Assembly: GCA_000004985.1 (NCBI GenBank)
Contig: GG738932.1
Origin: Naegleria gruberi
Lineage: Eukaryota
Strand: one strand, 5' to 3'
Length of the DNA: 64,000 bases
The notes under the pieces are model-generated. The model saw nothing but the letters and a program-made list of their open reading frames with translations, made no database searches and was not told the DNA's origin. Positions 25,589 through 57,394 of this stretch are shown piece by piece. The position numbers were made by a program, and so were the translations under genes. Position 1 is the stretch's first letter; the number at the start of each line of letters is the position of its first letter.

Positions 25589-26104
25589 TTAGTTTAATAA
25601 TTCATGAATGGAAGGAATACAAGTTCGAATAATCTTGTGATGATTGGTTTCTGAAGATAAATTACAGGTAGAGTTTGGAGATGAAGAAAGAGTTGTTGAG
25701 TTGGGCGAAACTAGGTGGTCCTCTTTCTTTGGTATAATTACAGGAATTGATGAATTACAATTATTCGAAAGTGAAACACCTGTGTTTCTTCTTTCCATTT
25801 TGTGTTTCTTTAGAGAAGATAACCCAGATGTATTCTTTGTATTGTAAGGTTTCCAATTATTATTGTTATGGAGATTAGTCCCAAAGTTTATCACACTTTC
25901 GTATGCATGTAACGTTCCAGGTTTTCTATTCTTGATTGTAAACATGCAACCCATTTTGGTGAAGGAAACAATTTCAAACACTCTGTGCTGATTGGATCCA
26001 TTCGAAACTTGTTGTTTCCTTGATTGGTTGGCACCTGGCAGCTGTCTCTCCACATGCACATACTCATTTGACATTTGGCGTCTTTCTTTCTTTACCAACA
26101 CCAT
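25589..26104 (-). CDS. SISIRELLN-family paralog a (171 aa)
   Basis: Internal motif FEIVSFTKMGCMFTIKNRKPGTLHAYESVINF. The C-terminus IIRTCIPSIHELLN-stop is a diverged form of the family ending. S/N-rich low-complexity middle. Confidence 0.6.
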   Translation of the reverse strand: MVLVKKERRQMSNEYVHVERQLPGANQSRKQQVSNGSNQHRVFEIVSFTKMGCMFTIKNRKPGTLHAYESVINFGTNLHNNNNWKPYNTKNTSGLSSLKKHKMERRNTGVSLSNNCNSSIPVIIPKKEDHLVSPNSTTLSSSPNSTCNLSSETNHHKIIRTCIPSIHELLN

Positions 26105-26395
26105 TCTCTCTGTTTTTTTACAAATCGAAAAATTAATTATCTTGCCAATAAAATCAACGAGAAGAAATCAGTCAAACTGTAATTGTTCAGTGCGCAAGTC
26201 AATTAAGTTTCCAAATAAAGACGCATGGTTTACAAATTTAAATTTCCAACACCTCAAATCATATTCAAAGGCAAAGCCAACCGGTTGATTTCTCTTCCTT
26301 TCAAGTTTCGAATATAGAAAGCGATAACAGATTTGTATGTGGATCTTTCCAATATATTCCTTGTTTCGAAAATTGAATCAAATACTGTTGTTGGT

Positions 26396-26908
26396 TTAAT
26401 TGAGCAATTCCTTTATTGACAGAACTGCTGAACGTTTTACATGTGGTTGCGTGGTATTATTCAGCAGTATTAGTGGAGTGGTATTCGAAAGGTTTAGTGT
26501 ATCAAGAATACATGAAGAATTGCAGTTGTTGGTTGGTGCTGATTCTGTTGCTGAAGTTGTGGATACGCAACATGGAGTTGATAATGTACATTTAGATTCA
26601 GTTTTCTTCTTTTGTTTTACTGATCTAGAAGTTTTTCTATTCGAATCTTTGGTTGGTTGATAAGTGTAGAATTTTACTGAACCAATCTTTGAGATTTCTC
26701 TTCTTTTAAGAGATTTCTGAACAGAGTAACTCTCCTTTCCAATCTTTGTTTCTTCACACGTTGGTAAAGTTCTCCAGTGTGAAAAATAAACCTGTGAGCT
26801 TTCGTCTGGTTTAATCTTCTTTGAAAACATGCTGACATTTGCTTGCTCCACCATCACAACCCTGTCATGTTGAAGAACAGGAAGAGATTGCACAATATTA
26901 TATTTCAT
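26396..26908 (-). CDS. SISIRELLN-family paralog b (170 aa)
   Basis: N-proximal VVMVEQANVSMFSKKIKP...QVYFS. C-terminus KRSAVLSIKELLN-stop. Confidence 0.55.
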   Translation of the reverse strand: MKYNIVQSLPVLQHDRVVMVEQANVSMFSKKIKPDESSQVYFSHWRTLPTCEETKIGKESYSVQKSLKRREISKIGSVKFYTYQPTKDSNRKTSRSVKQKKKTESKCTLSTPCCVSTTSATESAPTNNCNSSCILDTLNLSNTTPLILLNNTTQPHVKRSAVLSIKELLN

Positions 26909-27333
26909 TTGTTTTTTCTAGTAGTTAATTAAGAGTTGTCCAACAAACCTTTCGTCTTTGCTATTCGAAAACTGCTTGGTCAACATCCCAAAAAGATCTT
27001 GAGGTGGTTGAATATGTTAACAAACAGAACACAAGGATTCTCAAGTGTTTACAGTTTTTCAGATTCTTTTTTGGAAACACTGTTAATAGACAACAGTAGT
27101 TCAATATTTACAGTTATTCGAAATGGTTGATTATCATCCAATCAATTTACAAAATGAAACTGTAATGCATGACCAAACATAAACTCCAATTAGCAATTAA
27201 ATTGCCAATAATCATTAAGAAAAATTGAACGAATTCAAACGAAAGTTACGGATAATGTCACTTGTCTTTTGATTTACTTTAGTACAGTACGCCAACATGC
27301 AAAAAACCATTGAACAAAATAAACTCAAAATTG

Positions 27334-28011
27334 TTAATTTAATAATTCCCGAATTGATATCGAAGACCTCACAATTCTAGGTGAAGAAACTTTAGGCGTT
27401 GTTTGGACGAAACTTGTTGGTGAAACAAATTCTTGTTGACAGGTGGTAGGAATGCAAGTCATGGTTGTATTCACAGTCATTGGTGTGGATACCTGTTGAG
27501 TTGGAGGAATAAATTGGGTTGGATTAGAATAACTTTGAATGAATTCTTGTCTTGGTGAATTGTTGGCATTTGACATTTTGTTTTGCTTTTTTAATTTAGG
27601 TGATGCTGATCTAGATTGAATGGAACCACTTGATGAGGAGCTACAGGAAGTATTATCATTGACTGAGAAAACTTTCTCATGAGAATGTAAAGATTGCTTT
27701 CGTCTACGTTTGGAAACATTAAATAATGAATTGGTCATTGGAGAAAGTTCATAAACAATCTGATTGTTATTCGAAGGATGCTGTAAAAGATTAGTCTGAC
27801 AGCAATTGGTTGTGGTTGGAGACATTTTACGTGACTTTTTAATCTTATTCGAAATTTGTGGAGTTGTAGCATTTTGATTCCAATAGAAATAATTTGGTTG
27901 TGCTGTCGATTGACCATAACACTTGTAGGATTGAGCTTCTGTTTGCAAAGTCATAACTAGTTTCCTATCTTGCTGACTGCTGCTTTGAAAATTAACAATG
28001 GAAAGCTTCAT
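27334..28011 (-). CDS. SISIRELLN-family paralog c (225 aa)
   Basis: ATG at 28011. Motif NSLFNVSKRRRKQSLHSHEKVFSV. C-terminus SPRIVRSSISIRELLN-stop. Confidence 0.65.
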   Translation of the reverse strand: MKLSIVNFQSSSQQDRKLVMTLQTEAQSYKCYGQSTAQPNYFYWNQNATTPQISNKIKKSRKMSPTTTNCCQTNLLQHPSNNNQIVYELSPMTNSLFNVSKRRRKQSLHSHEKVFSVNDNTSCSSSSSGSIQSRSASPKLKKQNKMSNANNSPRQEFIQSYSNPTQFIPPTQQVSTPMTVNTTMTCIPTTCQQEFVSPTSFVQTTPKVSSPRIVRSSISIRELLN

Positions 28012-28943
28012 TATGTTTCGAATATTGTTTAGTGTTGTTTTTTTGTCTGTTGATGTAACACTGTGCTGTCTATATCCAACAGTTCAAAAATTCTTCAGCT
28101 TTTCACTTATTGTGTAACTTTATTCGAATGAGGAAGACACTCAAATTGTTATTGGATTCCAAATTGTTTCTTCATTGACCAAATTTAATGTGTACTTTCC
28201 ATTAATGCCAAGTTGAAAATTGACACCTTGCTTCTTTTTAAAAAACTCCCAAAACATCAATTTCCTTCCAACATGTAAGGTGCTAAACGAGTCAAGACAA
28301 GACTTTTTGTAGTATGGTTGTGAAAAGGAAATGGATTGAGTCACGTTGATTTATGGCACATTTACTTTACCATTTTCAAAATCTAATAGGTCAAACTGTA
28401 GTAAAACATGTTGAGGTGATGTTGTAAAAGGGGTATTTATTGAAATGATGTGGTGTTTATTAACGAGCTCTTCAATCAAGTCGACCTCATAATTGAATTC
28501 CATTCGAAAATAAAAAATTCTGCACGTTTTTAATCTATTTGGCTCTTCAAAATACCAAAAAGTGGTCTTACCAAATTCATTCTGATTTACCGCTCAAACT
28601 CGTTATGAATAAATTTAAAAAAAAAATAATCCAATCACTTACTCTCTGCTTCAATGACTCTACCACTTCTAGAATTTACTTCATAAAGATGAAGAATTTT
28701 CTGCACAGTTCATCCAACAAGTTACCATTAACACCTTCCAAGAAAGTAGATTTTCCTTATGAAAAGGCCTGCTAATCCTATTTCTAACCTTACTAGTTGT
28801 TAATAGTTGAAAAACATAGCTCGGGCGCACAATTTGATGATGAAAGATATGTTGTTGATGAAAGAGAACCTTTCAATAGATGGTTATCGTGGTTTATTGT
28901 CGTGCCATTATCTCTTCTGTTTCGCGATATTAAAACAAACCAA

Positions 28944-31004
28944 ATGGAAAAAAGAATGTCGACAACAGGTTCTTCCTCATCATCGTCATCTACATCTTCA
29001 AACTCTCCACAAGCAACAACACCATCATCAAATAATAATAATAATAACTCCAATACAAATAATAATAATAATAATAATACTGATGGTAATAAAGAACAAG
29101 AACACGATGAAAATATTCAAAACGGATTCTATTCAATATCTTGTTTAAATTGTAGAAAATCCCATCGATCCTGCAATAAACAATTTCCAACATGTTCTGA
29201 TTGTTTTGAAAGGAATCAGGAATGTATCTATGAATGTCCAAAGAAGAAGGGACGTAAGAAGGGAAGTAGAAATCAGAAAACTCTCGCAACAACAACAACA
29301 ACTGATAATCAACAAGCTAATAGAACAACAACAAAATCTAGGAAACAAAAAACTAATGCTGCAACTTCTCCTCCAGAAGCAACTAATTCATCCTCTGCCT
29401 CCTCATCCTCTTCAAATAATGTAGTGGGTGTTCAACAACAAGATGATTATACAGATTTGTTGAATTTAATTAATAATTATTCTCCATCTTCCAATCAATC
29501 AACTCATCAACTTATTAGAAGAATTTATCAACCCTATGTTAGAATGCAACAACACTTTTTGAATGATAGTATTAGAAAGAGAACTGTTGATATATTCTTT
29601 GAAGTGGTAGGAATGGGATATGATATCATTAGTAGACCAAAATTGGAACAATTAGCATTTGATTATATGAATGATAATATTGAGGAGGATGGAATATTTG
29701 CAAAGAATGTTGGATTTCAAGTTTCTGCAACGAGACACTCTGCAAAAGCAATGCTCTTTGCTATGCAAGCAATGGGAGAACAACGAATGGGAAATTTGGA
29801 TCTTGCTCACAAGGCCTACATGGAATCGAGACATCAATTGACACAATCATTTGATAATATTGATAATACCTATGTGAAAATTGCTTATGGATTATTGTCT
29901 TGCTATTTGGCAGGTGAGGGAGATGATGTGACTGCTCACTATTATCTCAATAATCTCCAACATGCTCTCGAACGTCCAGCCACCAACAATGCCTATCTCC
30001 TCCTAGAGACTGGAGATATCAGCGAGCCAGAAAGACAAGCAAAGCATTTCAATACCTTTATGCTGAAACAAAAAGTTTGCCTCGATCACAACAATCCACA
30101 AGATTTGAATATTTGGGAAGGTTTCATTTCAATGTACACTGCCAAGACACATGAAAATCCTCCTCAAGTGATTACAGATATTATTAGACGACAACCTTCT
30201 CCTCAATTGTTGGCAGTTGTTGATTTGATTATTTCAGTAATGAATACTGCATCAAAATTACATCTTTTCACAGAGAGTCAACGAAAAACATCAGCTGTCT
30301 ATGTTTCCATGATGAATTATTCAGCAAAGATTGCTGTCTTGCTCACTCTGGGAATTCAAGGTGGCGCCTTGTTGGATAATCTGGCAGATAGTGTTACTGC
30401 TTTGACTGATAGTGATATTTTCATGCTGTTGCCTTGTAGTGCCATTCACTACTTTGCCATTGCAATGAATTATAGAGTGAAACAATTCCAATTTGTGCAA
30501 GCAATTATTCAACAAAAATTGGATACTGGAAGAAGTTTAATGTCAATATTTGAAGACCAATATGAAAAACACTACTTTGAAATGGTTATGAAGGACATGA
30601 AGGCCCTCACTAGAATGAATACCAGATTTAAACGTGTGGAAAAGTACTATAGCACTTTAATTAGCAATTTGAAAGCAATTTTACAATGGAAATCGGATAG
30701 AATGGTGGAAATTATTCAAAAAATTGGATTTATTTCAGAGCATATTGGAGTTGAACAATTCAATCCTTACCAGAATACATTGCACAATGAACAAGTAATT
30801 GGCTCGGCTCTAAGCAAACAAGCTTTACCATCATCTTCATTTATTTCATCATTTTCATCATTTGAAAAGAACACATCAGCACCAACAATTTCTCAAAGTG
30901 ATCAACAACTCCTTTTGGATTCATTGGATAATCTTCTCGGCTCTTCAGCAAATAATGACGAGTTCCTAAACTTTGACATTCCAGATTTCACATCACAACA
31001 TTAA
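28944..31004 (+). CDS. Zn(II)2Cys6 binuclear-cluster transcription factor (about 686 aa from ATG 28944; the ORF extends upstream to 28797)
   Basis: CLNCRKSHRSCNKQFPTCSDCFERNQEC has the C-x2-C-x6-C-x6-C-x2-C-x6-C spacing of a Zn2Cys6 domain, followed by the basic stretch KKKGRKKGSR. S/N/T-rich N-terminal and linker regions, then a long helical middle-homology-like domain. TAA stop at 31002-31004. Confidence 0.8.
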   Translation: MEKRMSTTGSSSSSSSTSSNSPQATTPSSNNNNNNSNTNNNNNNNTDGNKEQEHDENIQNGFYSISCLNCRKSHRSCNKQFPTCSDCFERNQECIYECPKKKGRKKGSRNQKTLATTTTTDNQQANRTTTKSRKQKTNAATSPPEATNSSSASSSSSNNVVGVQQQDDYTDLLNLINNYSPSSNQSTHQLIRRIYQPYVRMQQHFLNDSIRKRTVDIFFEVVGMGYDIISRPKLEQLAFDYMNDNIEEDGIFAKNVGFQVSATRHSAKAMLFAMQAMGEQRMGNLDLAHKAYMESRHQLTQSFDNIDNTYVKIAYGLLSCYLAGEGDDVTAHYYLNNLQHALERPATNNAYLLLETGDISEPERQAKHFNTFMLKQKVCLDHNNPQDLNIWEGFISMYTAKTHENPPQVITDIIRRQPSPQLLAVVDLIISVMNTASKLHLFTESQRKTSAVYVSMMNYSAKIAVLLTLGIQGGALLDNLADSVTALTDSDIFMLLPCSAIHYFAIAMNYRVKQFQFVQAIIQQKLDTGRSLMSIFEDQYEKHYFEMVMKDMKALTRMNTRFKRVEKYYSTLISNLKAILQWKSDRMVEIIQKIGFISEHIGVEQFNPYQNTLHNEQVIGSALSKQALPSSSFISSFSSFEKNTSAPTISQSDQQLLLDSLDNLLGSSANNDEFLNFDIPDFTSQH

Positions 31005-32422
31005 ATCTTTTGTAATTCAATTTGACTATTAGTGGCTGGCTGTGTAGATGTTGTCTTTTTTTGTTGAGCTAACACTTGATCACTTGGAAGTCTAAACAAT
31101 CTCTGAACTTCCTTCAATGGATGATAAATTACCAACAAGAGCACAATAAATAGCACCATTCCAACATTGAAAAAGATATGGTACAAGAGCAAGATGTAAT
31201 TCCAGAAAAAGCCAAACGAAATGAACAAGACACCAATTGCTTCCAAGAATAAACTTGCCGATAATCCAATCTGCAACATTAAGGCACGTCTAAGAGCTCT
31301 CTTCTTCAGAGCATAGGTTTTAGCTTGTTCCTTGGTGAATTCAATGGTTGGAATTTGTTGAGTAGAGAGAGTTTCGGTTAAACTTGTAGTATTCGTAGAA
31401 AGAACATCCATCAAATCAGAATCCAATTGAGTTTGAGAATTTCCAACATCTTTGGTTGGTGAGGTTGCTCTGGCCACCGAAGCAACTGAGCTTCTTTCAG
31501 TTGCTGTTGTACTCATGGCCAATCGTTGTCTTTTGAATATTTCCTTGAGTTTCTTCTTACTCTTATTCAAAGCTGCTGATAATCTAGCTCCATAAACCTA
31601 ATAAATTTAATTTTCATTATTCAAAATAATGATATAAGAATTATTCGAAATTTGTGTCAATTATTCGAAATTGTAAAATAAACTTACATTCAACATGACT
31701 GTAATAATGAAACATGCAATAAAGAAAACAATGCATGGCACAATAAATATCGATTTTTGAAAATCATTGACCTTATCCGCAGTATCCAAAACATTAGTTG
31801 TCGTTCCTCTCAATCCATGATAAATCCAAATTGCAACATTATTCAATAAAAGTAGGGTGAATATTAAAACGATATTCGAAATGAGAACAACTCGTGAAAT
31901 TTTGTAGGTTGTTGGAGAGACAAATCCAGTTGCTTTGGTTGTGTCAATACTGTGAAATTTGACAATTGACATTATTCGAAACTGAAATTCTGAAACTTAC
32001 AAAACATTACAAATCAAACTCAATATTAAAATTTGCAAAAATATCAAAACTGAAACTGTAAATCTGTCAAATGCCTTAATTCCATTATTTGCATAAAATC
32101 TCACACTACCATTTGGTTCCAATAATGAAAATTCTCCCGCCAATCTTGAACTATTCGAAATCATGGCACTTGCTGAAAGTAAAATCAACAAAATGAATAA
32201 AGTTAATTGGTTTCGTTTCACTTGTTTTCTCTGGAGAATTAAACTAACGATGGAAACTATTAGAAACACTCCAAAAACTATAATGAAAGGTCCAGAGAAT
32301 GAACAAGCAAGAATACTATACAATCCATAGTATCCAATCGTATTTAAATTGGTAGAATTCGATAATGATGAAGAATTGTCAAGAATACTTTCGTATTCAA
32401 GAATATAATGTGACGATTCCAT
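31001..32422 (-). CDS. 7TM receptor-like protein of about 426 aa, three exons: 32422..32001, 31949..31688 and 31597..31001
   Basis: The three consecutive minus-strand ORFs carry 3+2+2 predicted TM helices. Intron 1 (31950-32000, 51 nt, GTAAGT...CACAG) removes an in-frame TAA. Intron 2 (31598-31687, 90 nt, GTAAGT...TTATTAG) is phase 0. The spliced CDS is 1281 nt. Short N-glycosylated N-terminus, a long third intracellular loop and an S/T-rich C-tail. Confidence 0.7.
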
Positions 32423-36588: not shown

Positions 36589-37038
36589 ATGCCATCTGCC
36601 ACCAATCATACAACATTCACTTTCCAATCTACTTCCCCAAATCACATGTTTGGCATTCTCAAAAGCCAGAAAACAATACAGCTGTCAAAACATGAATCAG
36701 TTTTTTGTTTGACATCTGGCATTGACTTACAATTCACGCCAACCAAAAAGCAAACCAAGAAAAGAACCAACAAGAAAACTTCCAACAAGAATAATCTTTT
36801 AGAAAATTTATCTGATTGCACAACAAGTGAAATTTCACAAGATTCGACAATGTCACTAATCATTTCACAACATGTCAAACCACAAACTCAATTTATAGCT
36901 TCTCCACAACAAACTCCATCAATTTCGAATACAACAAGTTCAAATTTGCCAAAATCATCACTTTCGTCCAATGCAAATACGAATGTCAGTAAGAAAGTTA
37001 TTCGAACTTCAATTTCCATTCGAGAATTATTAAATTAA
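36589..37038 (+). CDS. SISIRELLN-family paralog d (149 aa)
   Basis: Motif FTFQSTSPNHMFGILKSQK...HESVFCL. C-terminus KKVIRTSISIRELLN-stop. Confidence 0.65.
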   Translation: MPSATNHTTFTFQSTSPNHMFGILKSQKTIQLSKHESVFCLTSGIDLQFTPTKKQTKKRTNKKTSNKNNLLENLSDCTTSEISQDSTMSLIISQHVKPQTQFIASPQQTPSISNTTSSNLPKSSLSSNANTNVSKKVIRTSISIRELLN

Positions 37039-37859
37039 AATTTAATTTTCATTGAAAAAACAAGGTTCGCACAACAAACATTAAAAAATGGTATTAATTC
37101 AAGATTTAATTTCCAAAATGATCAAACTCTTTCCATTTTTGTAAAATTTAAATATTATTTAAAAATAAATTTAATTTCTCAAAAAATCAAATTGTTCTTT
37201 TCAATTCCTGATGAAATTTATCATTGCAAGGAGATCTTGTGCTCTGATGAAGAGAACTACCTCCAAAAAGACAATAATCTAAACCTGTTCGATCACATCA
37301 ACTTTTTATGACCCAGTGAATTTGTCAATTGGGCACAAATTCGTGGAGCTGTCCAAACAGAAACTAAAGAAACAGCAAAGCCTATTCCAGTTGTGTGATC
37401 TTTCCACATGATCTCAGTTCATAATAGACACAAGAAAACACAATGCTAATAATAAAAATATAATTTTATTTAATTATTGAAATATGTGGAAAGATTTCCA
37501 ACCTTGAAATTTACCTAGTTGGAAAATTTACCATTAGTGAATTTTATTGATGGTGTGATGATGATGACCATTAAGATATTTACCTTAATGATCGGACTTG
37601 CTGATGATATTGATGATAAAAGATATGATGAAGTGAAAATTCCACAACTCGATGAATACTAAGTGGAAAATTCAAACTCTCTTGATGGTGATATTAGACA
37701 TCCCTACTAATGATACTACGTTGTTGAAATTCAATCATCATGATGAAAATATATGGTGAATGATGAATACACCACCAACAAGGTGAAAACTCCAAATATC
37801 CAAAAACTATTATTCGGAGTGTTGTTGATGATGTATTTGAATGGTACTATTCGAAGAAA

Positions 37860-38030
37860 GTTTGGTTGATGATGAAGTACATGTTGAAATATGGTCCATG
37901 TAATATTTTGAATATATGCATGTACCTATCTTGATGAAAACAAAATTCCAATCTATGAAATTCGAATATGTATTGCTTTATACTATTACAAATAATCCCA
38001 CATATGAATTTCTGATGATGATTCACCAAC
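37860..38030 (-). repeat. Dispersed ~300-bp repeat, copy 3 (inverted and partial), embedded in GATGAT-rich sequence at about 37450-38340
   Basis: The reverse complement contains gataggtacatgcatatattcaaaatattacatggaccatatttcaacatgtacttcatcatcaaccaaac, matching the cores of copies 1 and 2. Confidence 0.6.
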
Positions 38031-38833
38031 TTTAATTTTTCCAATAACAAAATTACTATCTAATTCCATAACAATAAACTTCCACATAAAATTACTATTA
38101 TTACTATTATATTGATGATGTATAGATGATGAGGTTCAATTCTTGGAGTGGGAAGATGAAGAACCACTCTGAAAATAAACTACTCATAAAATTGATATTT
38201 TTTATGAATGCTAGATACGTCTTTATTGAGTTTGCTGTATGATGAAAGTATAATAAAAATTACTACTGTAACTACTATTTAAATGATGTTGAGATGATGA
38301 TGTGAAAGTTTGGTAGCTTACAGATATGAAACCACTCAAAGAATCATCAAGTCATTGACTTTATTTTTAGGTCTTCATTAAGTTGATCAGGTGAAACGGT
38401 TTCAAGATGCTTTCTTCTCTCACCCAAAGAAGTGATGGTGTTGAAAATTAGCATCAAGGTTCTTTTCAGAACCAGCTTTGTTGTTATCTAAGGTCAACCA
38501 TAGAGAAGAGTGATACTGAGCTACTATTGTCAGTTACTAGGATGTAACTTGACTTGTTGGTAGAAGTTGAAGATTTGTTTGCTGAAACTCTTTGACGAAT
38601 GTTAGAGATATTCGTTTTGCTTGGTGTTTGAATTATTTCAATACACTTTCTTTTGTTGAGCATAAAAATTATTTATCAACTCAATTTTATTGTTTACAAT
38701 TTGTGTTTAAATACTAATGTTACATCGTTCCTCACAACTCTACACTACTTTATCTCAGTAAACTTTAATAAAAACACCTTTCTTAATTGAGTTTGACGAA
38801 TTGATCAGTTCAATAATAATAATTTTACTGAGA

Positions 38834-42700: not shown

Positions 42701-43204
42701 ATGTCTACAACACATCTATTCAATACTCTCAACAATAGTGCTAACAGATATCGTCACACTAGTCCTCATTCCATCATGATGATGTCAACTAACAATATTC
42801 TGCATTCGTCTCCTTCCACACTTTCGAATAATACCTTTCCAATAACCAAAGTGATTAAAAACAATGCAGTACCACATACACAGCAATCCAAGATAACAAA
42901 GCCATCCAAAACTAAAAAGGCAACCTATTTGGAAGGTTTCGACACTGTTTCTTTCACTGCCAATCAATCAATGTTTGGCGTTACTAGAAAACGAAAGAGT
43001 AAACCAATCGAATATGAACAAGTTTTGAATTTTGGTTGTATTGCTCCTCCTTCCAGTGAGAATAGTGTCATTCCACGAAAGATGAGACAATCTCTTGATA
43101 ATTATTCAAGCGTTTCGTCCACTTCTTCCACAACGACGTCAAATGAAAGAACGAGTCCAAGAATTGTGAGAACTTCCATTAGTATTCGAGAATTGTTGAA
43201 TTGA
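42701..43204 (+). CDS. SISIRELLN-family paralog e (167 aa)
   Basis: Motif GFDTVSFTANQSMFGVTRKRKSKPIEYEQVLNF. C-terminus SPRIVRTSISIRELLN-stop. Confidence 0.7.
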   Translation: MSTTHLFNTLNNSANRYRHTSPHSIMMMSTNNILHSSPSTLSNNTFPITKVIKNNAVPHTQQSKITKPSKTKKATYLEGFDTVSFTANQSMFGVTRKRKSKPIEYEQVLNFGCIAPPSSENSVIPRKMRQSLDNYSSVSSTSSTTTSNERTSPRIVRTSISIRELLN

Positions 43205-49783: not shown

Positions 49784-50749
49784 ATGTTTTCCACCACATC
49801 AAACAACAATAACAATTTAAATAGTAATACGTATATTCAAAAGACTAATTTAATTAGTAGAGAAGAATTGGATTATATTCAATCTCATCAAATACACTTT
49901 CCTTCCATTAATAACAACAATTCAACAACTACAACCGATGAACAAGAACAACATGAAGAATGGCTGAATGAAATTGTTCAAACTCTCACTTTCCACTACA
50001 CTGAATTGATCAGCAAACAAATGATGAGCCTCTTCTACCCTAGATATCAACACTTTTTGCAATGTCTCTTCATACCAGGAATTGGCACACGATTTGAGCA
50101 ATTCTACAACTTTTTGGAGTGTTGTTCTTTTGAAGAGAAGGAAGCTTGGACTCATCAAGAAGCCTTTGAGGCCTTTGCTAATCATTTGGGAAGAGTGAGA
50201 ACCTACAGAGCTTTGGCGTTGAAGGAGAGTGAATATCAAAAGATAATCTCTGATGATTCTATTCATCCAACAGGAAGATTGAAGATATCAAAGGAGATTG
50301 TTGAAGGAATGGTTGATTTGCATGGTGTTTGGAAGATTTGTCATGCCAGATTGTATATTGGACAAAGAATGGTCAAGTATGATCCTTCTCTTTCTCTACA
50401 CGATCATCCAGAGACAACTACCTGCATTGCTTCACATTATATGGATTTACCAGAGAGGAAGATTTATTTGATGGAATTGGATTTACCACTCATTGAAGTG
50501 TTGGGTTATAAAGTGAGAGATGTTGCCTATGATAGGAATAGAAGATGGTTTTATTATGGAAAGATTTGGTTTGACAGCTTTGATGAAACTACTGAACGAT
50601 ATACCTTGTTCGAAATTCCACTCCTTTCAAAGAGGATGACTTCATTGAGGATTTTTGATAATCAGCAAGATATTGAAAACTTTTTGCGACCATTCAGAGA
50701 AAGTCAACAACTCTTAAAGAATCAATGTGATGATCAATCGGAAGAATAA
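49784..50749 (+). CDS. Hypothetical protein (321 aa) with an N-rich N-terminus
   Basis: Long ORF with coding-like composition and no recognised domain. It may be one gene with 50880-51875. Confidence 0.5.
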   Translation: MFSTTSNNNNNLNSNTYIQKTNLISREELDYIQSHQIHFPSINNNNSTTTTDEQEQHEEWLNEIVQTLTFHYTELISKQMMSLFYPRYQHFLQCLFIPGIGTRFEQFYNFLECCSFEEKEAWTHQEAFEAFANHLGRVRTYRALALKESEYQKIISDDSIHPTGRLKISKEIVEGMVDLHGVWKICHARLYIGQRMVKYDPSLSLHDHPETTTCIASHYMDLPERKIYLMELDLPLIEVLGYKVRDVAYDRNRRWFYYGKIWFDSFDETTERYTLFEIPLLSKRMTSLRIFDNQQDIENFLRPFRESQQLLKNQCDDQSEE

Positions 50750-50879
50750 TTATTCAACTTTAATCGTAGTAGGGTTTTTAACCTTACACATTTTAAATTA
50801 AATAATTTTGATAATTAATATTTAAAAAAAATTCATCAACATCTAACAATAAGAAACGTTTTCATCTTTCAAAAATTAG

Positions 50880-51875
50880 ATGATCACATTTCAACTTGTT
50901 GATTGGATCGGAAAGGAGGAAGAAAAAACAAACATCTGGTTGCAATATCAGCTAAGAGGAAAACATTCCTTCTCCTATCATCACTTTCATCACTTGGCCA
51001 CAATTGGTCACGAACAAAAATACATTCCAACCAATGAGAATGGTATTAATTTGTATTGGCCAACTTGTGCCATCATTCACAATTCAATGTTAATTATTGC
51101 AGATAATGGATACTCGAGGATTAATATGTTCAATGTAGAAACCAGAGATCATTTGGGATTTTTCAACATTCCAAAACAAGCTCCTGAGCGATTACTCTCA
51201 TGTGGAAATTCTCTGATTATTTCCTCCACCTTTAGAGTCTTTTCTTTAGATTTGACAAAGCTCAGCAATTCCAACACAACAATCAAGCTAAACGATTTGC
51301 AATGGAATGTGTTATTTGAACGTTGTATTATTAGTATTTGTCTGAGGAAGAAATTTACAAATCAAAACAATAACAAACAACATGCCCTAATCTATGTGGT
51401 TTTGGAGTCTGGAAGAGTATTCGAATTGGATAGCAATAATGGACAGATTGTAAGAGATTTTCAAATATTGGATCCATTCTCGAAAAATCCATTAATCCCA
51501 AGTGAACTTATCTATGTTTCCAAACTTAAATCATTCATCATGTTGGATAGCTACAAAAATAGTGTGGTTACTTTTTCAGATTGTACCCTTGAAATAACCC
51601 ATCAATTCAACCTTATTGGAAAACATCTGTTCCGTTCTATTTACTATGACGACTACAAGAACCTTATTTATATTTGTACAAGCAAAAATGTACAAATTTA
51701 CACCAGGGCTGGTATGTTAATCAATGTAATTCTGGATGAAAATGCAAAAGGAAGCAGACTGAGAGAACCTAGTCCATTTCAACTGTGTATGCCTTTTCAA
51801 AGTTTCATTCATGGAAATCGTTTCTATCTGGTTGACTATGATCACCATAGGATGTTGATATTCCTTTCGAATTAG
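50880..51875 (+). CDS. Hypothetical protein (331 aa), possibly a beta-propeller-like fold
   Basis: Long ORF 130 nt downstream of the previous one. Repeated hydrophobic beta-strand-like segments. No confident domain call. Confidence 0.5.
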   Translation: MITFQLVDWIGKEEEKTNIWLQYQLRGKHSFSYHHFHHLATIGHEQKYIPTNENGINLYWPTCAIIHNSMLIIADNGYSRINMFNVETRDHLGFFNIPKQAPERLLSCGNSLIISSTFRVFSLDLTKLSNSNTTIKLNDLQWNVLFERCIISICLRKKFTNQNNNKQHALIYVVLESGRVFELDSNNGQIVRDFQILDPFSKNPLIPSELIYVSKLKSFIMLDSYKNSVVTFSDCTLEITHQFNLIGKHLFRSIYYDDYKNLIYICTSKNVQIYTRAGMLINVILDENAKGSRLREPSPFQLCMPFQSFIHGNRFYLVDYDHHRMLIFLSN

Positions 51876-52162
51876 TTCATCAACAAATTGGTCACTCAAC
51901 AAATTTTTCCTGAATAAGCTCAAAATGATTTTTGGCTTGTGGCGACCTAAACTTACGTTTACGTTTAAGGACAGAGGAAAGGACTAAAATAGCACACATT
52001 TTGCTATTTGTGTAATCTCCAATTGATTATGGAAATTATAAAGTGTTGCGAGATTTAGCGAGATTAGAGGTTCTCGTTGGACAAGCTTTACGTTTTTAAT
52101 TGTGGCGTTATTAATGACACATAGAAAGACATCAAAATATCAATTACAAGAAAAAAAACAAG

Positions 52163-52699
52163 ATGGTACAAAAGCAAGTGAGAGATTCAAACAAGAAGAA
52201 TTTAATTGGGTCAATTAGTTCACCACAAAAGATTGGCAAACAAAACAATAACATGCTGAAAGCTCCAAGTTTTGATTTTGATGTTGTGAGTTTCACCAAT
52301 AATCACAGCATGTTTGCCACATCAAGACAGAGAAAAGCACCTGTGCAAGCTTATGAACAAGTACTTATTCTGCAACCTCAAACTCTCATTAGTTCTCATG
52401 AGCTTGAAATGCCTAGAAAAAAGCAGAAGAAACATCGAGTGACTGGGTCCAAGATTTTTGAAACTACTCTACCTGAAGATTTACATCCACCTCAAACAAG
52501 AGTCACAACTACATGCATAGCATCTTCATGCAACTGCTCTACATCCTCATCATTGAATGTATCAATGCAAACACCTTCTTCACCTGACCAGTTTATGATC
52601 GGTTACAATAATCAGCAGCTTAATACCAGCACTAAATCTTCATCCAGTTCTTCACGTATTCATCGCTCATCAATTTCAATCAGAGAATTGTTAAATTGA
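52163..52699 (+). CDS. SISIRELLN-family paralog f (178 aa)
   Basis: Motif FDFDVVSFTNNHSMFATSRQRKAPVQAYEQVL. C-terminus RIHRSSISIRELLN-stop. Confidence 0.7.
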   Translation: MVQKQVRDSNKKNLIGSISSPQKIGKQNNNMLKAPSFDFDVVSFTNNHSMFATSRQRKAPVQAYEQVLILQPQTLISSHELEMPRKKQKKHRVTGSKIFETTLPEDLHPPQTRVTTTCIASSCNCSTSSSLNVSMQTPSSPDQFMIGYNNQQLNTSTKSSSSSSRIHRSSISIRELLN

Positions 52700-52893
52700 C
52701 CGTTTCATTAAGCTAGGTCTAAAAATGGTCAACTAACATATTTGTAACGACACGTGTCTAACCACAAAGTAACAGATATTCCAGATCAGTAATTGACCAC
52801 AACAGCGTAAAATTGTCAAACATTATTCTTTTGGGATTGGTTTTTCTAATGTGAAGGTCATGGTTTTATGGTGCTGTTAAAAAGTTAAAAAAT

Positions 52894-53280
52894 ATGCCAC
52901 AACAGCATACCGATAGCAGATCAGCACATAACAGCCAACAACAATGCAACAAGACAAAGAGTTCAGTACCAGTATTTGTTTTGAATGATGTCTTGAACAC
53001 TAGAGTTGAATACACTGTCCACAAGTCCATGTTTGGTGTCATTAAAAAGAGAAAGACGACTGTTCAGAGCTATGAAACTGTTCTTTATTTTAATCGTAAG
53101 GAAGAAACCAAAGCTTCTGGAATTCAAAAACAGCAGAAGAAACCAATTCAATTAAATATCCAACAAGCACAACACAAATCATCTTATTTACCTGTACAAT
53201 CTAGGCCAATAAGAACAAAAATATCCATTAAAGAGTTGCTCAATCCACAACCTGAGATTTTCATTACCCCCAATCAATAA
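52894..53280 (+). CDS. SISIRELLN-family paralog g (128 aa), in tandem with f
   Basis: Motif VHKSMFGVIKKRKTTVQSYETVLYF. C-terminus RPIRTKISIKELLN followed by a 10-aa extension. Confidence 0.6.
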   Translation: MPQQHTDSRSAHNSQQQCNKTKSSVPVFVLNDVLNTRVEYTVHKSMFGVIKKRKTTVQSYETVLYFNRKEETKASGIQKQQKKPIQLNIQQAQHKSSYLPVQSRPIRTKISIKELLNPQPEIFITPNQ

Positions 53281-53324
53281 ATGTTTCCAAATGTTTAAAT
53301 ATATTTGCTTGTGATGATTGAAAA

Positions 53325-55366
53325 TTACTTTTTGTTTGCTTCCTCATCTGCCTTTGCTTCTTCCTTTGGTTTGTTGATTGCCTTGTTCAAAATCAATGAG
53401 AGGAAAAACATGACTGCACTAATTACAGTAATAACATAAAATACCATACGATGGTCGATTGGAAATTTGGACACTGCAACAGAGCCAGCGAATATGGATC
53501 CCCCAATTATTGGACTCACCATTCTCGAAAGTGCAACAAATGATTGAGCAGTACCATTCAATTTACCATAATTCTTCCTTGAAACACTGTTATTTGTAAT
53601 GAGGAAAGTACCCAAGAAGCTATAACCATTAGAAACTTGTCTTACTAGGAGAATAAGACCAAGAACACTCCAAAACAACACATGTTTCCACATTGGATCA
53701 TCTTCAGTAGCCACTAACCAAATAATTTCTGGGAAGATGACATTGAAAATAGTATCTACCAAAATACTCCAACGATAACAGGTTAATGGACTGAATTTGG
53801 CAATAACAACAGGTGTAATGAATAATTGATTCACAAAAATGATAAATCCTAAAAATCCTCCCATTACTTTGTGTTTCAAATTCCAAATTTACAAATATTT
53901 GTAGAGAATAACAAGTGAATATTTAACAATATTATAAAAAGAAAACTTACAACCAAGATGATAAGAGGACATTCCCAATCCTCCCTTATCTTTAGGAAGG
54001 ACAGCAAAGAGAGGTAAACATTCATCAAACATGATTTGTTTCGATCCCAATAATAAATAGAGTAAGCATGTTGTTAATGGAACAGGAGAGGCCACCATTT
54101 CATGCTTTCTAAAACTATCGAACTTATTCTTGAGTTTTTGCAATAGGGTTTCCTTAATAACAATTGGTTCTTGATCCTGTTCTTCGAGGTCGTCGGTTGG
54201 AGTTGACAATAAATTTGTTTTGGAAATGGTACTTCCCTTACTCTTGTGTTTATCAGCAATCTCTTCTGATTCCTTGGCAATAAATTTTCTATAATACCAA
54301 CTGTTCTTATTGGCCTCTTCCAGTTTCAAATAGCCCAATACGAAACCAACTAAGGAAAAGCTAGAAATGAAAAAACTTGGTAAAATGTAAGGGAATTGAA
54401 TAACAAAGTTTTGTATCCACTCTGGGAAGAGCATGACAAAACTTGGATATTGTTGATAAGGTCTCGAAAATACACCACCAAGCAATGGTCCTAACACAGA
54501 TGATAGACCAAATGTAATACTAGTCAATGAGAATGCTCTTGCCTGATTGGTACTATCAGTAATTTCTCCTAAATAACTTTTAACAACTCCCAAATTACTG
54601 TATTGTTTCCAATAAATTCCATTGTTTCCATTAAAGATTGTTCATTCAATGTTGTTCAATGTTTCCATTGGTTTTAAAGAAGTTCATTCAATATTAGAAT
54701 GTAAATAACTCAAACATACCCATTCAATAAACCAAACATGAATCTACAAATACATGCCCACCATAACCATCTCGAAAATCCAAACATTAATCCACAAAGG
54801 CCACCAAAAAACGTTCCAAACAGTAAAACAGGCCTTCTTCCAATACTATCCGAAATAGTTCCCCAAAAGAAGGAACTAATAAATTGAGAAAGAAAGTATG
54901 CAGCAGCAACCAATCCAACATAATAACCATACTCTGTTGGATTATCAGTCAAGTTAAAATCAGCAATCATGAATGTAATATAGGGCATTAGGGATGTGAA
55001 AGTCAAACTATCACACAAATACAGGAAAAAGACGACAAATAATTTACCCCAGGGCAATGGAGTAACTTTTTGTGGTTGTTGTTTTTTCTTTTCTGTTTCT
55101 TCTTCTTTTTCTTCTTCTTCTTCGGAAGCTTTTTGTTTTACTTCATCTTCATCCAATTCTTCCAAGGCTCTACTGCTCATCAGATGATGACTAATTGCTA
55201 TAGAATTTTCCTCTCCATCTGATCCTTCATCTTGTACAAGCCTTTTTAAATTCTTTTTCAATTCATATGTTTTTGTTTCCTCTGCTTCTTCTTCTCGCTC
55301 ATCATCACGATCAGAATTAATTGATGAATTAATTGATACCGATTCACTATTCTTCCTCTTTACCAT
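53325..55366 (-). CDS. Major facilitator superfamily transporter of about 611 aa. Exons 55366..54720, 54597..53951 and 53866..53325.
   Basis: Exon 1 has the MFS signature GTISDSIGRRPVLLFG. Intron 1 is 54598-54719 (122 nt, GTATGT...ACAG) and intron 2 is 53867-53950 (84 nt, GTAAGT...ACAAAG). An acidic N-terminal tail, about 12 TM helices in total and a long central loop. Confidence 0.75.
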
Positions 55367-56716
55367 CTTCTTCTATGCAATTATAATTTTCTTTTTTTGT
55401 TGTTGAAACTCTTTCATTCTTGTTGTGTTTGTTGTTCAACAAAAGTTGGTGATGCTTCGGATTCTCCAATCAAGTTTAACCTCCTGACTTGGTACTGATT
55501 CAATTTATATAAATTGTCTTCAAAATTGAAGAAGCCGTATTTCGCTGTAGATATTCTTTTAAAACTCCAAAACTACCTCCTCGTGAGCACTAACTCTTTC
55601 AAAGTCAAGATGAACAATCATAAATGATGAATTGTTGTTATCAAGAATTAAGATTGGAATTCATTCTTCTTGTTTTTATTAAGCATACATCTCCCTCTTA
55701 ACATTAATTCCCTCTCATTTGTTTTTTTATTGTGTGTGAAAAGATTGAAGAGTTCACTACTGAGAAAATCATTGCAAATGTGTTGAATTCATGCTCGTGT
55801 TAAATAAACATGTGAGTGTGGATTGATGAAGAATGGACTGGGAGCCATACACGTTGACTCATTTATCACCTCCTCCAGCTCTTTCCATTTCAGTTAGCTG
55901 TATTGTGAAATGTGGTAATAATTTTCATTGTAATCGTTGTTTCTGCTTGGAAAGGTATCTACCTGGGAGAGAGTTTGAGAACAAAGAATAAACAACTCTC
56001 TTGGTCCCTAAGGCATGCCAATTAAGCAATATTTAAATATTACCTGATATTGGAATTATTTCAAAAAGGATGGTATTCTCCAATTATGACCATCGAGACC
56101 ATGGTTCATTGGTTCATTGTTTTATACACTCATCCAAATTTGAATATGATGATTAGCAGCATCTTAACGTTGTTAAGGTCTATACTTCACATGTGAAATA
56201 GGCAATCCTACTCATGAAATGAACTTACAGAGACGGAGAATAAAAATGCCACAAAGATTGTTTCACAACAAGTGGTCGTGTGTGGCATTGTCCCCAGTTC
56301 ATTTGAGATGGTTGACTTTGAATGGAGAGGTTAAAATTCCTTAATCGAATCTTCCTTATTTCCATTGATTGCCTTAATATAATTCCTCTTCACCATATTC
56401 ACTAATCACATCCGGTATACTGAAGTCAAATGGTCCTTTACCTGTGGTAGTCAGCTGTATATTAGATAACCAATAAAGTTTTGTCGTTTTGTAAATAATC
56501 ATCGTCACCCTTGGACGCATTATTCTCCATTGAGGATTGTGGGATTGTGTGGTATTGGGAAGGTCATCATACTCTTAGAAGAATCAATTAAGTGTAAATT
56601 GAGAAAAAAAACCACCCGACTGGCTTAGACTAATATTTTTCACACAAACTACCAGCAATTATCCCTAATACCACCAAAGAACTTAGACATTTTATTAATC
56701 CGCCTCTGTTTTTAAC

Positions 56717-57394
56717 ATGAACACCACTATCACTTCTTCCACTGGTTCTTCCTCCAAATCCAAAACCAGAGGACGCATTCAAAAGAAGGCACCAAGAAGA
56801 CAGAAAACCTTCTCTCTCTTCTCCAATCACAATATCCAATCCACAAGTTTCAAAGTACTGCAGAGCACAGAGAATTCCATGATGGGAGTATTCAAAAAGA
56901 CGAGAAGTATGTGCAGTTTGGCTTCATACGAATCTGTTTGGAATATGAACAATACCATGATACAGAACTCTATGCCACAACAGCCATGTGTACATTCAAA
57001 TTGTCCTCCAATAATAGTCACTCTTACTTCCTCTCCATCCAATAATCATACGCAACAACAATCACCTACTAATACCACTCCTTGTACTGCCAGTAGAAAG
57101 AAGAGAGTCATGTCTTCATCTTCCTTGTCGAGTATGTGTGATTCCTCATCTTCAGAAAACACAATAATTGCAGCTCCAATTAATATCATACCCTCAATGC
57201 AAGGATGCCATCCAATATTGCCTCATTCACAATCCTCTCCACAACAAGTCAACATTAGCTCCTTGAATATAACTCCAATCATGCAACCATCCATTGTTGA
57301 AATGACAACAGAATCTCTCTCGCCTTCATCACCAGGGCAATATTTCAAAAAAGGAAGAATCCAAATGCCAACATTAAGGGAGCTCTTGAATTGA
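56717..57394 (+). CDS. SISIRELLN-family paralog h (225 aa), diverged
   Basis: Motif FKVLQSTENSMMGVFKKTRSMCSLASYESVWNM. C-terminus KKGRIQMPTLRELLN-stop. Confidence 0.6.
   Translation: MNTTITSSTGSSSKSKTRGRIQKKAPRRQKTFSLFSNHNIQSTSFKVLQSTENSMMGVFKKTRSMCSLASYESVWNMNNTMIQNSMPQQPCVHSNCPPIIVTLTSSPSNNHTQQQSPTNTTPCTASRKKRVMSSSSLSSMCDSSSSENTIIAAPINIIPSMQGCHPILPHSQSSPQQVNISSLNITPIMQPSIVEMTTESLSPSSPGQYFKKGRIQMPTLRELLN

What the first reader, a model, noticed from the sequence alone, without database searches (positions are those of the whole stretch)
25589..57394. Eight-member family of small S/T/N-rich proteins sharing an SMFGV..KRK..YEQVLNF motif and an invariant C-terminal SISIRELLN-stop
The eight ORFs are at 25589-26104, 26396-26908, 27334-28011, 36589-37038, 42701-43204, 52163-52699, 52894-53280 and 56717-57394.

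Each encodes a 128-225 aa protein with three shared features:
- a low-complexity Ser/Thr/Asn-rich body;
- an internal motif of about 30 residues, clearest in e (GFDTVSFTANQSMFGVTRKRKSKPIEYEQVLNF), f (DFDVVSFTNNHSMFATSRQRKAPVQAYEQVL) and g (VHKSMFGVIKKRKTTVQSYETVLYF), and degenerate in the others;
- a nearly fixed end exactly at the stop codon (RIVRTSISIRELLN, RIVRSSISIRELLN, RIHRSSISIRELLN, VIRTSISIRELLN, LSIKELLN, SIHELLN, PTLRELLN).

Anchored termini with a hypervariable middle are the signature of a lineage-specific family binding a common partner, possibly a nuclear factor given the KRK-rich motif. I cannot match it to any described domain. Eight copies within 32 kb of a chromosome end suggest subtelomeric amplification.
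Basis: seen in the sequence. Interest (0 to 1): 0.85.

Follow-up and report, generated by a model that had tools for sequence, protein, structure and literature searches.

The report
Naegleria small proteins with corepressor-like tail
Eight small genes near one chromosome end of the amoeba Naegleria gruberi are real, selected members of an uncharacterised family of disordered basic proteins whose conserved tail (ISI-R/K-ELLN) closely resembles the peptide that yeast MATα2 uses to recruit the Tup1 corepressor, which suggests, but does not prove, that they recruit the Tup or Groucho-like proteins of this organism.

Summary
All eight ORFs exist at the stated coordinates in a Naegleria gruberi chromosome end (telomere (CCCAAA)n at 1-337). 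Seven end exactly at ...ELLN-stop; g runs 13 residues further.

They are genes, not decayed copies or a DNA repeat. Tail codons differ synonymously between paralogues, and similarity stops at the stop codon. Against a 97-99% identical environmental strain, pooled dN/dS is 0.29 (P=4e-5), about 0.10 in the motifs.

The family has at least 11 paralogues in N. gruberi. Three lie on other scaffolds, and two of those carry an AT-hook core (KRGRP). No relative was found outside Naegleria-like sequences among 1.84 billion proteins, and there is no Pfam or PDB match. AlphaFold predicts disorder with short helices only at YExVL and at the tail.

The tail ISI[RK]ELLN has the IxIxxLL spacing of the Tup1-binding N-terminus of yeast MATα2 (MNKIPIKDLLNPQ; g reads TKISIKELLNPQ), a Phe-less eh1 motif. 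Copley (2016) found both Tup and Groucho-like proteins in N. gruberi but no eh1-bearing partners.

Best reading, about 35% confidence: small nuclear adaptors that recruit a WD40 corepressor. "Recent subtelomeric amplification" is not supported: the copies are ancient and interspersed with unrelated genes.

The parts
25589..26104 (-). Member a, 171 aa, tail IIRTCIPSIHELLN-stop. NCBI model NAEGRDRAFT_75962 is truncated to 121 aa.
   Evidence: orthologue P0005 in environmental strain
26396..26908 (-). Member b, 170 aa, tail VKRSAVLSIKELLN-stop, with a degenerate motif 1. In tandem with a and c.
   Evidence: (P0007, annotated in NCBI N. gruberi)
27334..28011 (-). Member c, 225 aa, tail RIVRSSISIRELLN-stop (NAEGRDRAFT_75964). 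Its N-terminal KLSIVNF resembles the N-terminus of the AT-hook paralogues.
36589..37038 (+). Member d, 149 aa, tail KVIRTSISIRELLN-stop (NAEGRDRAFT_76785). In the environmental strain a 10-nt deletion at 36936-36945 frameshifts the tail.
42701..43204 (+). Member e, 167 aa (NAEGRDRAFT_82239), the clearest member. Motif 1 FDTVSFTANQSMFGVTRKRKSKPIEYEQVLNF is at nt 42938-43033; the tail RIVRTSISIRELLN is at nt 43160-43201.
52163..52699 (+). Member f, 178 aa, tail RIHRSSISIRELLN-stop. In NCBI it is the last exon of a 711-aa, probably chimeric, model NAEGRDRAFT_54436.
52894..53280 (+). Member g, 128 aa, with an internal tail motif RPIRTKISIKELLN followed by PQPEIFITPNQ-stop. TKISIKELLNPQ matches MATα2 NKIPIKDLLNPQ at 9 of 12 positions. 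In tandem with f (194-nt gap).
56717..57394 (+). Member h, 225 aa (NAEGRDRAFT_75978), tail KGRIQMPTLRELLN-stop, with an N-terminal KTRGRIQKK that looks like a degenerate AT-hook.
1..337 (.). Telomere tract (CCCAAA)n, which defines the chromosome end. This is context, not part of the family.

Best explanation
The eight ORFs are functional genes of a Naegleria-restricted family, with at least 11 paralogues in N. gruberi. They encode small (128-254 aa), strongly basic, intrinsically disordered proteins. Each carries a central motif (F-x-Φ-V-x-F-T ... SMFGV - K/R cluster - YExVLxF), an unalignable S/T/N-rich linker, and a tail R-x-x-(x)-Φ-S-I-(R/K/H)-E-L-L-N, usually at the very C-terminus. Proposed mechanism (inferred, not shown): they are nuclear adaptors or repressors. 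The K/R cluster, or a true AT-hook in two paralogues, takes them to the nucleus and to AT-rich DNA. Motif 1 contacts a second partner. The tail folds on binding into a short amphipathic helix that docks into the central pore of a WD40 corepressor, namely the Tup and/or Groucho-like protein that N. gruberi is reported to encode. That is how the IxIxxLL N-terminus of yeast MATα2 binds Tup1 and how eh1 motifs bind Groucho/TLE. Confidence is layered: about 0.9 that this is a real selected family of disordered motif-bearing proteins, about 0.6 that they are nuclear or chromatin-associated, and about 0.35 that the tail's partner is a Tup/Groucho-type WD40 protein. The confidence figure given for this explanation is that of the last and most specific step.
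For: Real genes: dN/dS between N. gruberi and a 97-99% identical environmental strain is 0.29 pooled (P=3.8e-5). It is 0.10 in motif codons and 0.41 in variable codons, against 0.33 for neighbouring genes. Three of four indels inside the ORFs are multiples of 3, against 4 of 16 indels outside the family ORFs. Between paralogues pS is saturated (0.69-0.87) while tail pN is 0.17-0.30. Tail codons vary synonymously, and similarity ends at the stop. Family breadth: P0013, P0014 and P0021 lie on three other N. gruberi scaffolds, and P0012/P0016 come from another environmental assembly. Disorder plus helices: AlphaFold gives helices only at the tail (pLDDT 77-79) and at YEHV of motif 1. Nuclear or DNA-associated: pI 9.2-10.4; KKRGRPVK and RKRGRPAK in P0014 and P0021, with Pfam AT_hook at 14.4 bits. 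Corepressor link: MATα2 residues 1-13 are MNKIPIKDLLNPQ. Ile4, Leu9 and Leu10 are required for the interaction with the Tup1 WD40 domain, and the motif is read as an eh1 with Ile in place of Phe. Seven of 12 members match I[SP]I[KR][DE]LLN, expected 0.026 times per proteome. Nine of 12 match the Phe-less eh1 core once each, always at the tail. Ser at position 2, typical of eh1, is present in 11/12. N. gruberi has both a Tup protein and a Groucho-like WD40 protein. The Groucho-like one has Leu at the aromatic position of the residue pair that sits next to the motif's Phe, and no eh1/WRPW partners had been found for it.
Against: The link to Tup/Groucho rests on an 8-11 residue resemblance found after the fact. 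Copley warns that without the initial Phe/Tyr the eh1 motif is poorly specified, and the loose Phe-less core is expected 0.33 times per 170-aa protein by chance. No member matches the metazoan eh1 core (0/12). Five of the 12 members have an extra residue in the tail; in a, h and P0013 Pro sits at the first hydrophobic position, and those three miss the Phe-less core. The same MATα2 peptide has also been listed as an atypical nuclear localisation signal. No binding, localisation or expression data exist. I did not examine the N. gruberi WD40 proteins myself. The AT-hook score is below Pfam's cut-off, and only 2 of 12 members have one. AlphaFold confidence for the helices is moderate and the alignments are shallow (8-13 sequences).
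Confidence: 0.35

Rival explanations
1. The family is as described, but the tail binds some other, possibly Naegleria-specific, partner. The likeness to MATα2/eh1 would then be a coincidence of amphipathic-helix chemistry.
For: Short hydrophobic motifs recur by chance: the loose core is expected 0.33 times per protein, and Copley gives the same caveat. The invariant Arg 4-5 residues upstream and the invariant Glu and Asn are not features of eh1. The family was not detected in other Naegleria species or other eukaryotes, so a lineage-specific partner is plausible.
Against: The strict 8-mer shared with MATα2 is very rare (3.7e-9 per position). Ser at position 2 and all four hydrophobic positions fit eh1. 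The organism has the matching receptors, which lack known ligands.
Confidence: 0.35
2. The tail is a nuclear targeting signal of the MATα2 1-13 type and not a corepressor-recruitment motif.
For: MNKIPIKDLLNPQ is listed as an atypical NLS. The proteins look nuclear: they are basic, and two have an AT-hook.
Against: Most members already have a classical K/R cluster, so a second, much more strongly conserved NLS seems unnecessary. An import signal would not be expected to sit at the exact C-terminus in 10 of 12 members.
Confidence: 0.1
3. The tail is a C-terminal degron or stability element read by a ubiquitin ligase.
For: It sits at the exact C-terminus in 10 of 12 members.
Against: The g/P0013 subgroup keeps the motif internally, with 13-20 residues after it, and g is conserved between strains. 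-LLN is, to my knowledge, not a described C-degron class.
Confidence: 0.07
4. One reading: a recently amplified subtelomeric contingency family, like the variable gene families at chromosome ends in parasites and yeasts.
For: Eight of the 11 known N. gruberi copies lie 25-57 kb from one telomere, partly in tandem: a-b-c and f-g.
Against: Synonymous sites are saturated. There is no DNA similarity between copies or their flanks. Unrelated genes are interspersed. The cluster is collinear and 97-99% identical in a second strain. Three paralogues lie on other scaffolds.
Confidence: 0.05
5. These are non-functional ORFs, pseudogenes or a repeated DNA element that happens to be open.
For: The sequence is low-complexity. 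Member d is frameshifted in the environmental strain. No expression data were found.
Against: dN/dS is 0.29 with P=3.8e-5. Indels inside the ORFs are in frame. The tail shows synonymous codon variation. There are no DNA repeats.
Confidence: 0.02

Closest known systems
N-terminal Tup1-interaction motif of yeast MATα2 (MNKIPIKDLLNPQ; IxIxxLL)
   Same: It has the same hydrophobic spacing and nearly the same residues: I-[S/P]-I-[K/R]-[D/E]-L-L-N. Member g also shares the following Pro-Gln. Both lie at a protein terminus in a disordered region, and both organisms have a Tup protein.
   Different: MATα2 is a homeodomain protein with the motif at the N-terminus, whereas these proteins have no folded DNA-binding domain and carry the motif at the C-terminus. 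Position 2 is Ser/Thr here and Pro in MATα2. The family also has an invariant upstream Arg. There is no homology outside the motif, so any relation is convergent. Binding is untested.
eh1 / octapeptide / TN motif of animal transcription factors (FS[VI]xx[IL][LM]), the ligand of the Groucho/TLE WD40 pore
   Same: Ser at position 2, Ile/Leu at position 3 and Leu-Leu at positions 6-7. A short helix is predicted. N. gruberi has a Groucho-like WD40 protein.
   Different: The defining initial Phe/Tyr is absent (0/12 match the core). The family has no transcription-factor domain. eh1 is usually N-terminal.
Ripply/Bowline adaptors and the C-terminal WRPW of Hairy/HES/Runx (comparison from my own knowledge)
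   Same: This is an analogy in how it would work. Ripply proteins are small, mostly disordered proteins with two short motifs, one recruiting Groucho and one binding a DNA-bound factor. WRPW, like this tail, sits at the extreme C-terminus.
   Different: There is no sequence similarity. The second partner (for motif 1) is unknown here.
HMGA-type AT-hook chromatin proteins (comparison from my own knowledge)
   Same: They are also small, basic and disordered. P0014 and P0021 have a KRGRP core.
   Different: There is only one hook, in 2 of 12 members, and it scores below the Pfam cut-off. There is no acidic tail.

Membership tests
Metazoan eh1 motif (FS[VI]xx[IL][LM]) | First position Phe (less often Tyr/His) | tested here: not met
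   0 of 12 members match [FYH].[IVM]xx[ILM][ILMV]. The first position is Ile in 7, Leu in 2 and Pro in 3. The consensus is from Copley as quoted; the regular expression itself is from my memory of the ELM entry.
Metazoan eh1 motif (FS[VI]xx[IL][LM]) | Ser at position 2 and aliphatic residues at positions 3, 6 and 7 | tested here: met
   Ser 11/12 (Thr 1), Ile/Leu 12/12, Leu 12/12, Leu 11/12
Metazoan eh1 motif (FS[VI]xx[IL][LM]) | Forms a short amphipathic helix | tested here: inconclusive
   AlphaFold predicts a 5-residue helix over (R/K)ELLN in two members at pLDDT 77-79, from shallow alignments
Metazoan eh1 motif (FS[VI]xx[IL][LM]) | Binds the WD40 pore of Groucho/TLE | not testable with these tools
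   No multimer prediction or binding assay is available. The presence of a Groucho-like WD40 protein in N. gruberi is taken from Copley 2016.
MATα2-type Tup1-interaction motif (IxIxxLL) | Ile-x-Ile-x-x-Leu-Leu spacing (positions 4, 6, 9, 10 of MATα2) | tested here: met
   7/12 match I[SP]I[KR][DE]LLN exactly, and 9/12 match if Leu is allowed for Ile. The MATα2 sequence was verified.
MATα2-type Tup1-interaction motif (IxIxxLL) | Mutation of the Ile/Leu residues abolishes Tup1 WD40 binding and repression | not testable with these tools
   This needs an experiment. Indirect support: these positions are the most conserved, and motif codons have dN/dS of about 0.10.
AT-hook (Pfam PF02178) | R-G-R-P core flanked by basic residues, scoring above the Pfam gathering threshold | tested here: inconclusive
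   P0021 scores 14.4 bits against a cut-off of 17.4, and P0014 is not reported. The core KRGRP is visible in both. None of the eight window members has it; h has TRGRI.
Subtelomeric contingency gene families | Recent duplication or gene conversion, seen as DNA-level similarity between copies and flanks | tested here: not met
   No repeats link the copies, pS is 0.69-0.87, and there is no similarity beyond the stop codon
Subtelomeric contingency gene families | Copies at many chromosome ends | not testable with these tools
   The N. gruberi genome is not in any searchable DNA collection here. Three paralogues lie on other scaffolds, at unknown positions.
CDK inhibitor (Cip/Kip, Pfam CDI), considered because of 'MFG' and 'YE.V' in motif 1 | Match to the CDI domain | tested here: not met
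   No Pfam hit at E<=1 for any member. The spacing between the two elements is about 13 residues, against about 45 in p27 (the p27 figure is from my own knowledge).

The most novel reading that the evidence does not exclude
These proteins are the missing eh1-like ligands of the Naegleria Tup and Groucho-like WD40 corepressors. That would mean recruitment of Tup/Groucho-type propellers by a short Φ-S-Φ-x-x-L-L helix operates in a heterolobosean, far outside animals and fungi. [quoted passage not shown] It would be carried not by classical transcription factors but by a dedicated family of small disordered adaptor proteins.
Probability: 0.3. Interest if true: 0.75.

Novelty: new variant of a known kind. 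Interest (0 to 1): 0.5.

Why it matters
Copley (2016) found that N. gruberi is one of only two non-holozoans with a Groucho-like protein and that it also has a Tup protein. He could not find any eh1 or WRPW motif among its transcription factors, so it was left open whether the peptide-in-pore recruitment mechanism predates opisthokonts. This family offers concrete candidates: twelve short tails that can be synthesised and tested against two WD40 domains. A positive result would date the mechanism, or show convergence, and would give Naegleria its first candidate corepressor adaptors. A negative result would still leave a well-defined orphan family of disordered proteins under selection, with two motifs whose partners could be found by pull-down. 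The finding also corrects several gene models: a is truncated, f is fused into a 711-aa chimera, and I saw no NCBI model for g.

Tried and rejected
1. Pfam scans of all members found nothing above threshold.
2. PDB profile searches with the whole family, the tail alone and motif 1 alone gave only noise: MAT1 at E=0.28 on the low-complexity linker, and Cdc45 at E=2.6 on 14 residues.
3. A shared promoter element was not found. Only the generic A-rich leader is shared. TTCGAA looked enriched upstream, but it is over-represented four-fold across the whole window and absent around f, g and h.
4. A DNA-repeat or mobile-element origin was rejected.
5. Viral origin: no relatives in IMG/VR. There were none in the JGI metagenomes either. 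The full family alignment was too divergent for the locus finder.
6. My early statement that only 3 of the 8 are annotated was wrong. Clustering at 90% identity hid the NCBI models behind environmental representatives.
7. The apparent loss of h's stop codon in P0004 is an artefact of a metagenome gene-caller reading TGA as Trp.
8. My first dN/dS run for b was out of frame and was redone.
9. By inspection only, I considered and dropped PP1 RVxF/SILK, calcineurin PxIxIT, APC/C D-box, PIP-box, 14-3-3 and basophilic-kinase sites, the cyclin RxL motif and nuclear export signals. None fits the conserved positions across all members.
10. Expression evidence could not be obtained. No paper cites the locus tags, and the one N. 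gruberi RNA-seq paper I tried has no supplementary tables held.
11. P0011, a 540-aa repeat protein, is a spurious hit.
Full report
**Origin of the window.** The window starts with about 56 copies of CCCAAA (1-337), followed by unique sequence and an assembly gap at 2089-3902. GC content is about 33%. Proteins c and h are identical to NCBI "predicted proteins" of Naegleria gruberi. The window is therefore one end of an N. gruberi chromosome.

**The observation.** An alignment shows invariant R...ELLN in all eight. It also shows a central block, consensus VSFTxxxSMFGVxKxRKxxLxxYESV, that is clear in a, e, f, g and h and weak in b, c and d. Seven ORFs end at ELLN-stop. Member g continues for 13 residues, PQPEIFITPNQ. 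No further ELLN-stop ORF exists in any of the six frames. The layout is a-b-c in tandem on the minus strand (gaps 291 and 425 nt), then d, e, the f-g tandem (194 nt) and h on the plus strand, 25.3-57.1 kb from the telomere tract. About fifteen unrelated ORFs lie between them. These include a Zn2Cys6 protein, ankyrin, RCC1-like and PIP5K-like ORFs and a transporter of the MFS family.

**Protein or DNA conservation?** In the last 14 codons the amino acids are conserved but the codons are not: Ser is TCA/TCC/AGT, Arg is CGA/CGG/AGA/AGG, Leu is TTA/TTG/CTC, Ile is ATT/ATA/ATC, and the stop is TAA or TGA. The sequences become unrelated immediately after the stop. No direct or inverted DNA repeat connects any two members. 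Between paralogues, synonymous sites in the alignable blocks are saturated (pS 0.69-0.87), whereas non-synonymous divergence in the tail is 0.17-0.30. These are old duplicates whose tail is kept by selection on the protein.

**Are they genes?** A soil or water metagenome (ENA ERZ929261, run ERR1078381) contains a Naegleria strain 97.1-99.4% identical to the window and collinear with it. Across seven members I counted 21.5 synonymous and 22.5 non-synonymous differences. That gives pS 0.028, pN 0.0082 and dN/dS 0.29, with a binomial P of 3.8e-5 against neutrality. Neighbouring genes give 0.33. Within the two motifs pN/pS is 0.004/0.040, and in the variable body it is 0.0098/0.024. The difference between motif and body is not itself significant (P=0.11). 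Indels inside the ORFs are +3, -3, -3 and one -10, while only 4 of the 16 indels outside the family ORFs are multiples of three. The -10 removes d's tail in the environmental strain (P0008). This is either a real loss or an assembly error in an S-rich run. An apparent read-through of h (P0004) is a gene-calling artefact, because the TGA is present.

**Size and spread of the family.**
- An exhaustive HMMER scan of 1.84 billion representative proteins, using a profile running from motif 1 to the tail, found only 11 proteins at E<=1e-3.
- These were the window's own products or their strain variants, one spurious repeat protein, and two new members.
- P0012 ends SLHELLN-stop. It and its longer form P0016 come from another ENA assembly, on short contigs (599 nt for P0012).
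- P0013 is N. gruberi NAEGRDRAFT_65314, on a 573-kb scaffold. It resembles g, with PSIKELF followed by an extension.
- Word-indexed searches added P0014 (NAEGRDRAFT_61743, 1.0-Mb scaffold) and P0021 (NAEGRDRAFT_82132, 175-kb scaffold).
- P0014 and P0021 both end RIIRTSISIKELLN-stop, and both contain KFS[IV][IV]EF at the N-terminus, then (K/R)KRGRP, then a ...YE... element. hhalign gives 93.6% probability for P0014 against the family tail.
- Most window members are in fact annotated in NCBI: a is truncated, b, c, d, e and h are intact, and f is the last part of a 711-aa model that strings three separate ORFs together.
- No protein from N. fowleri, N. lovaniensis or any other genus was detected. 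There were also no hits in IMG/VR or the JGI metagenomes.
- So there are at least 11 paralogues in N. gruberi, eight of them in this cluster.

**Physical nature.** All members are basic (pI 9.2-10.4) and 36-48% Ser/Thr/Asn/Gln. AlphaFold2 predicts no fold: mean pLDDT is 61 for e(77-167) and 53 for P0014, with pTM 0.13-0.14. The only secondary structure is a 5-residue helix over (R/K)ELLN (block pLDDT 77-79) and, in P0014, one over the YEHV of motif 1. There are no Pfam hits except a sub-threshold AT_hook in P0021, and no PDB relatives. These are disordered proteins carrying short linear motifs.

**What the tail resembles.**
- Tail consensus: [RK]-Φ-x-R-[TS]-x-(x)-[I/L/P]-S-[I/L]-[R/K/H]-E-L-L-N.
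- This is the IxIxxLL pattern of the yeast MATα2 N-terminus, MNKIPIKDLLNPQ. I verified that sequence in PMC10163088 Table 2 and in PMC2817886.
- Mutations of Ile4, Leu9 and Leu10 in MATα2 abolish interaction with the Tup1 WD40 domain and relieve repression (Komachi 1994, as cited in PMC4943189 and PMC4901127).
- Bürglin and Affolter, and Copley, read the MATα2 motif as an eh1 motif (FS[VI]xx[IL][LM]) with Ile in place of Phe. eh1 binds as a short amphipathic helix in the central pore of the TLE1 propeller.
- Member g reads TKISIKELLNPQ against MATα2's NKIPIKDLLNPQ.
- Seven of the 12 members match I[SP]I[KR][DE]LLN, a pattern expected 0.026 times in a 7-million-residue proteome.
- Nine of 12 match the Phe-less eh1 core, exactly once each and always at the tail.
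- The Ser at position 2 is an eh1 hallmark that MATα2 itself lacks.

**Why the resemblance matters in this organism.** Copley 2016 reports several things. N. gruberi has a Tup_N-containing Tup protein. It also has a Groucho-like WD40 protein that branches at the base of the Groucho clade. That protein has Leu at the aromatic position of the conserved residue pair (F,E in Groucho, Y,L in Tup) whose side chain sits next to the motif's Phe. Tup-type pockets might accept eh1-like motifs lacking the initial Phe. He could find no eh1 or WRPW motif in Naegleria transcription-factor proteins. His screen used the Phe-initiated model and kept only hits in proteins with known transcription-factor domains, so it would have missed this family.

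**Mechanism proposed.** Shown here:
- The family is a selected set of coding genes.
- The proteins are predicted to be disordered and are basic.
- There are two conserved motifs, each with predicted helical propensity.
- Two paralogues have an AT-hook core.
- The tail matches the MATα2/eh1 register.

Inferred:
- The proteins are nuclear.
- The tail docks into the Tup and/or Groucho-like WD40 pore.
- Motif 1, or the AT-hook, tethers the protein to DNA or to a DNA-bound factor. The family would then act as corepressor adaptors, much as Ripply proteins or C-terminal WRPW tails do in animals (that comparison is from my own knowledge).

I put the corepressor step at about 0.35. The evidence is a short motif found after the fact. 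The loose form of the motif is common (0.33 expected per protein). Three members (a, h, P0013) have Pro at the first hydrophobic position. The same MATα2 peptide has also been described as an atypical NLS.

**Subtelomeric amplification.** The cluster is near a telomere, and parts of it are tandem. But the copies are anciently diverged, share no flanking DNA, are interspersed with ordinary genes, are stable between two strains, and have relatives on three other scaffolds. This is an old local expansion that happens to lie within 60 kb of a chromosome end. Whether other chromosome ends carry copies could not be tested, because the genome is not in any searchable DNA collection here.

**Verdict.** The family is new in the sense that it is unnamed, has no domain assignment and is not mentioned in the searchable literature. 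Its general kind, a lineage-specific disordered family with short motifs, is common. What lifts it above ordinary is the specific, testable link to Tup/Groucho recruitment in an organism where that question is explicitly open.

Noticed in passing
window 1-337 and 2089-3902: There is a telomere tract of about 56 CCCAAA units (TTTGGG on the other strand) with one CCCGAA variant, then 1.7 kb of unique AT-rich sequence and an 1814-N assembly gap. ORFs listed across the gap (2019-3993) are artefacts of the Ns.
   Followed up: partly
whole window; densest at 25.6-28.5 kb: The palindrome TTCGAA occurs 68 times against 17.4 ± 4 expected from dinucleotide-preserving shuffles, in both genes and spacers. 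There are 14 sites in 2.9 kb around members a-c and none around f-h. It is probably a genome-wide property of N. gruberi whose meaning I do not know.
   Followed up: partly
window 13586-21835 (-): A 2749-aa ORF contains roughly 1-kb internal repeats at 19.0-21.4 kb (repeat families D1, D2, D4, D7; ORF). It is a very large repetitive protein between the telomere and the family cluster.
   Followed up: no
window 8096-8196 and 12522-13148 versus 37837-38176: Inverted similarity of 71-83% (I1-I5) indicates another paralogous gene family with copies on both sides of the cluster. The environmental contig L005 also matches 12657-12937 at 73%.
   Followed up: no
window 49784-52699 (+): NCBI model NAEGRDRAFT_54436 (711 aa, P0017) joins three separate ORFs (49784-50749, 50880-51875 and member f) through predicted introns. 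This is probably a chimeric gene model.
   Followed up: partly
window 28797-31004 (+): A 735-aa ORF with a fungal-type Zn2Cys6 binuclear cluster domain (Pfam Zn_clus, 27.2 bits) lies directly next to the a-b-c tandem. It also contains DYTDLLNL, which loosely resembles the tail motif.
   Followed up: no
L002 475-1251 (orthologue of h) and L005 191-625 (orthologue of d): The metagenome gene-caller read TGA as Trp, producing a false 33-residue extension of h (P0004). The d orthologue has a 10-nt deletion (window 36936-36945) that frameshifts away the conserved tail (P0008). That could be a strain-specific loss or an assembly error.
   Followed up: partly
window 25955-26104, the first ~50 codons of member a (minus strand): Between strains, the N-terminal 50 codons of a carry 5 non-synonymous changes, no synonymous changes and a 3-nt insertion. 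The NCBI model starts at Met51. However, that start would remove the conserved FEIVSFT element, so the true start codon of a is uncertain.
   Followed up: no
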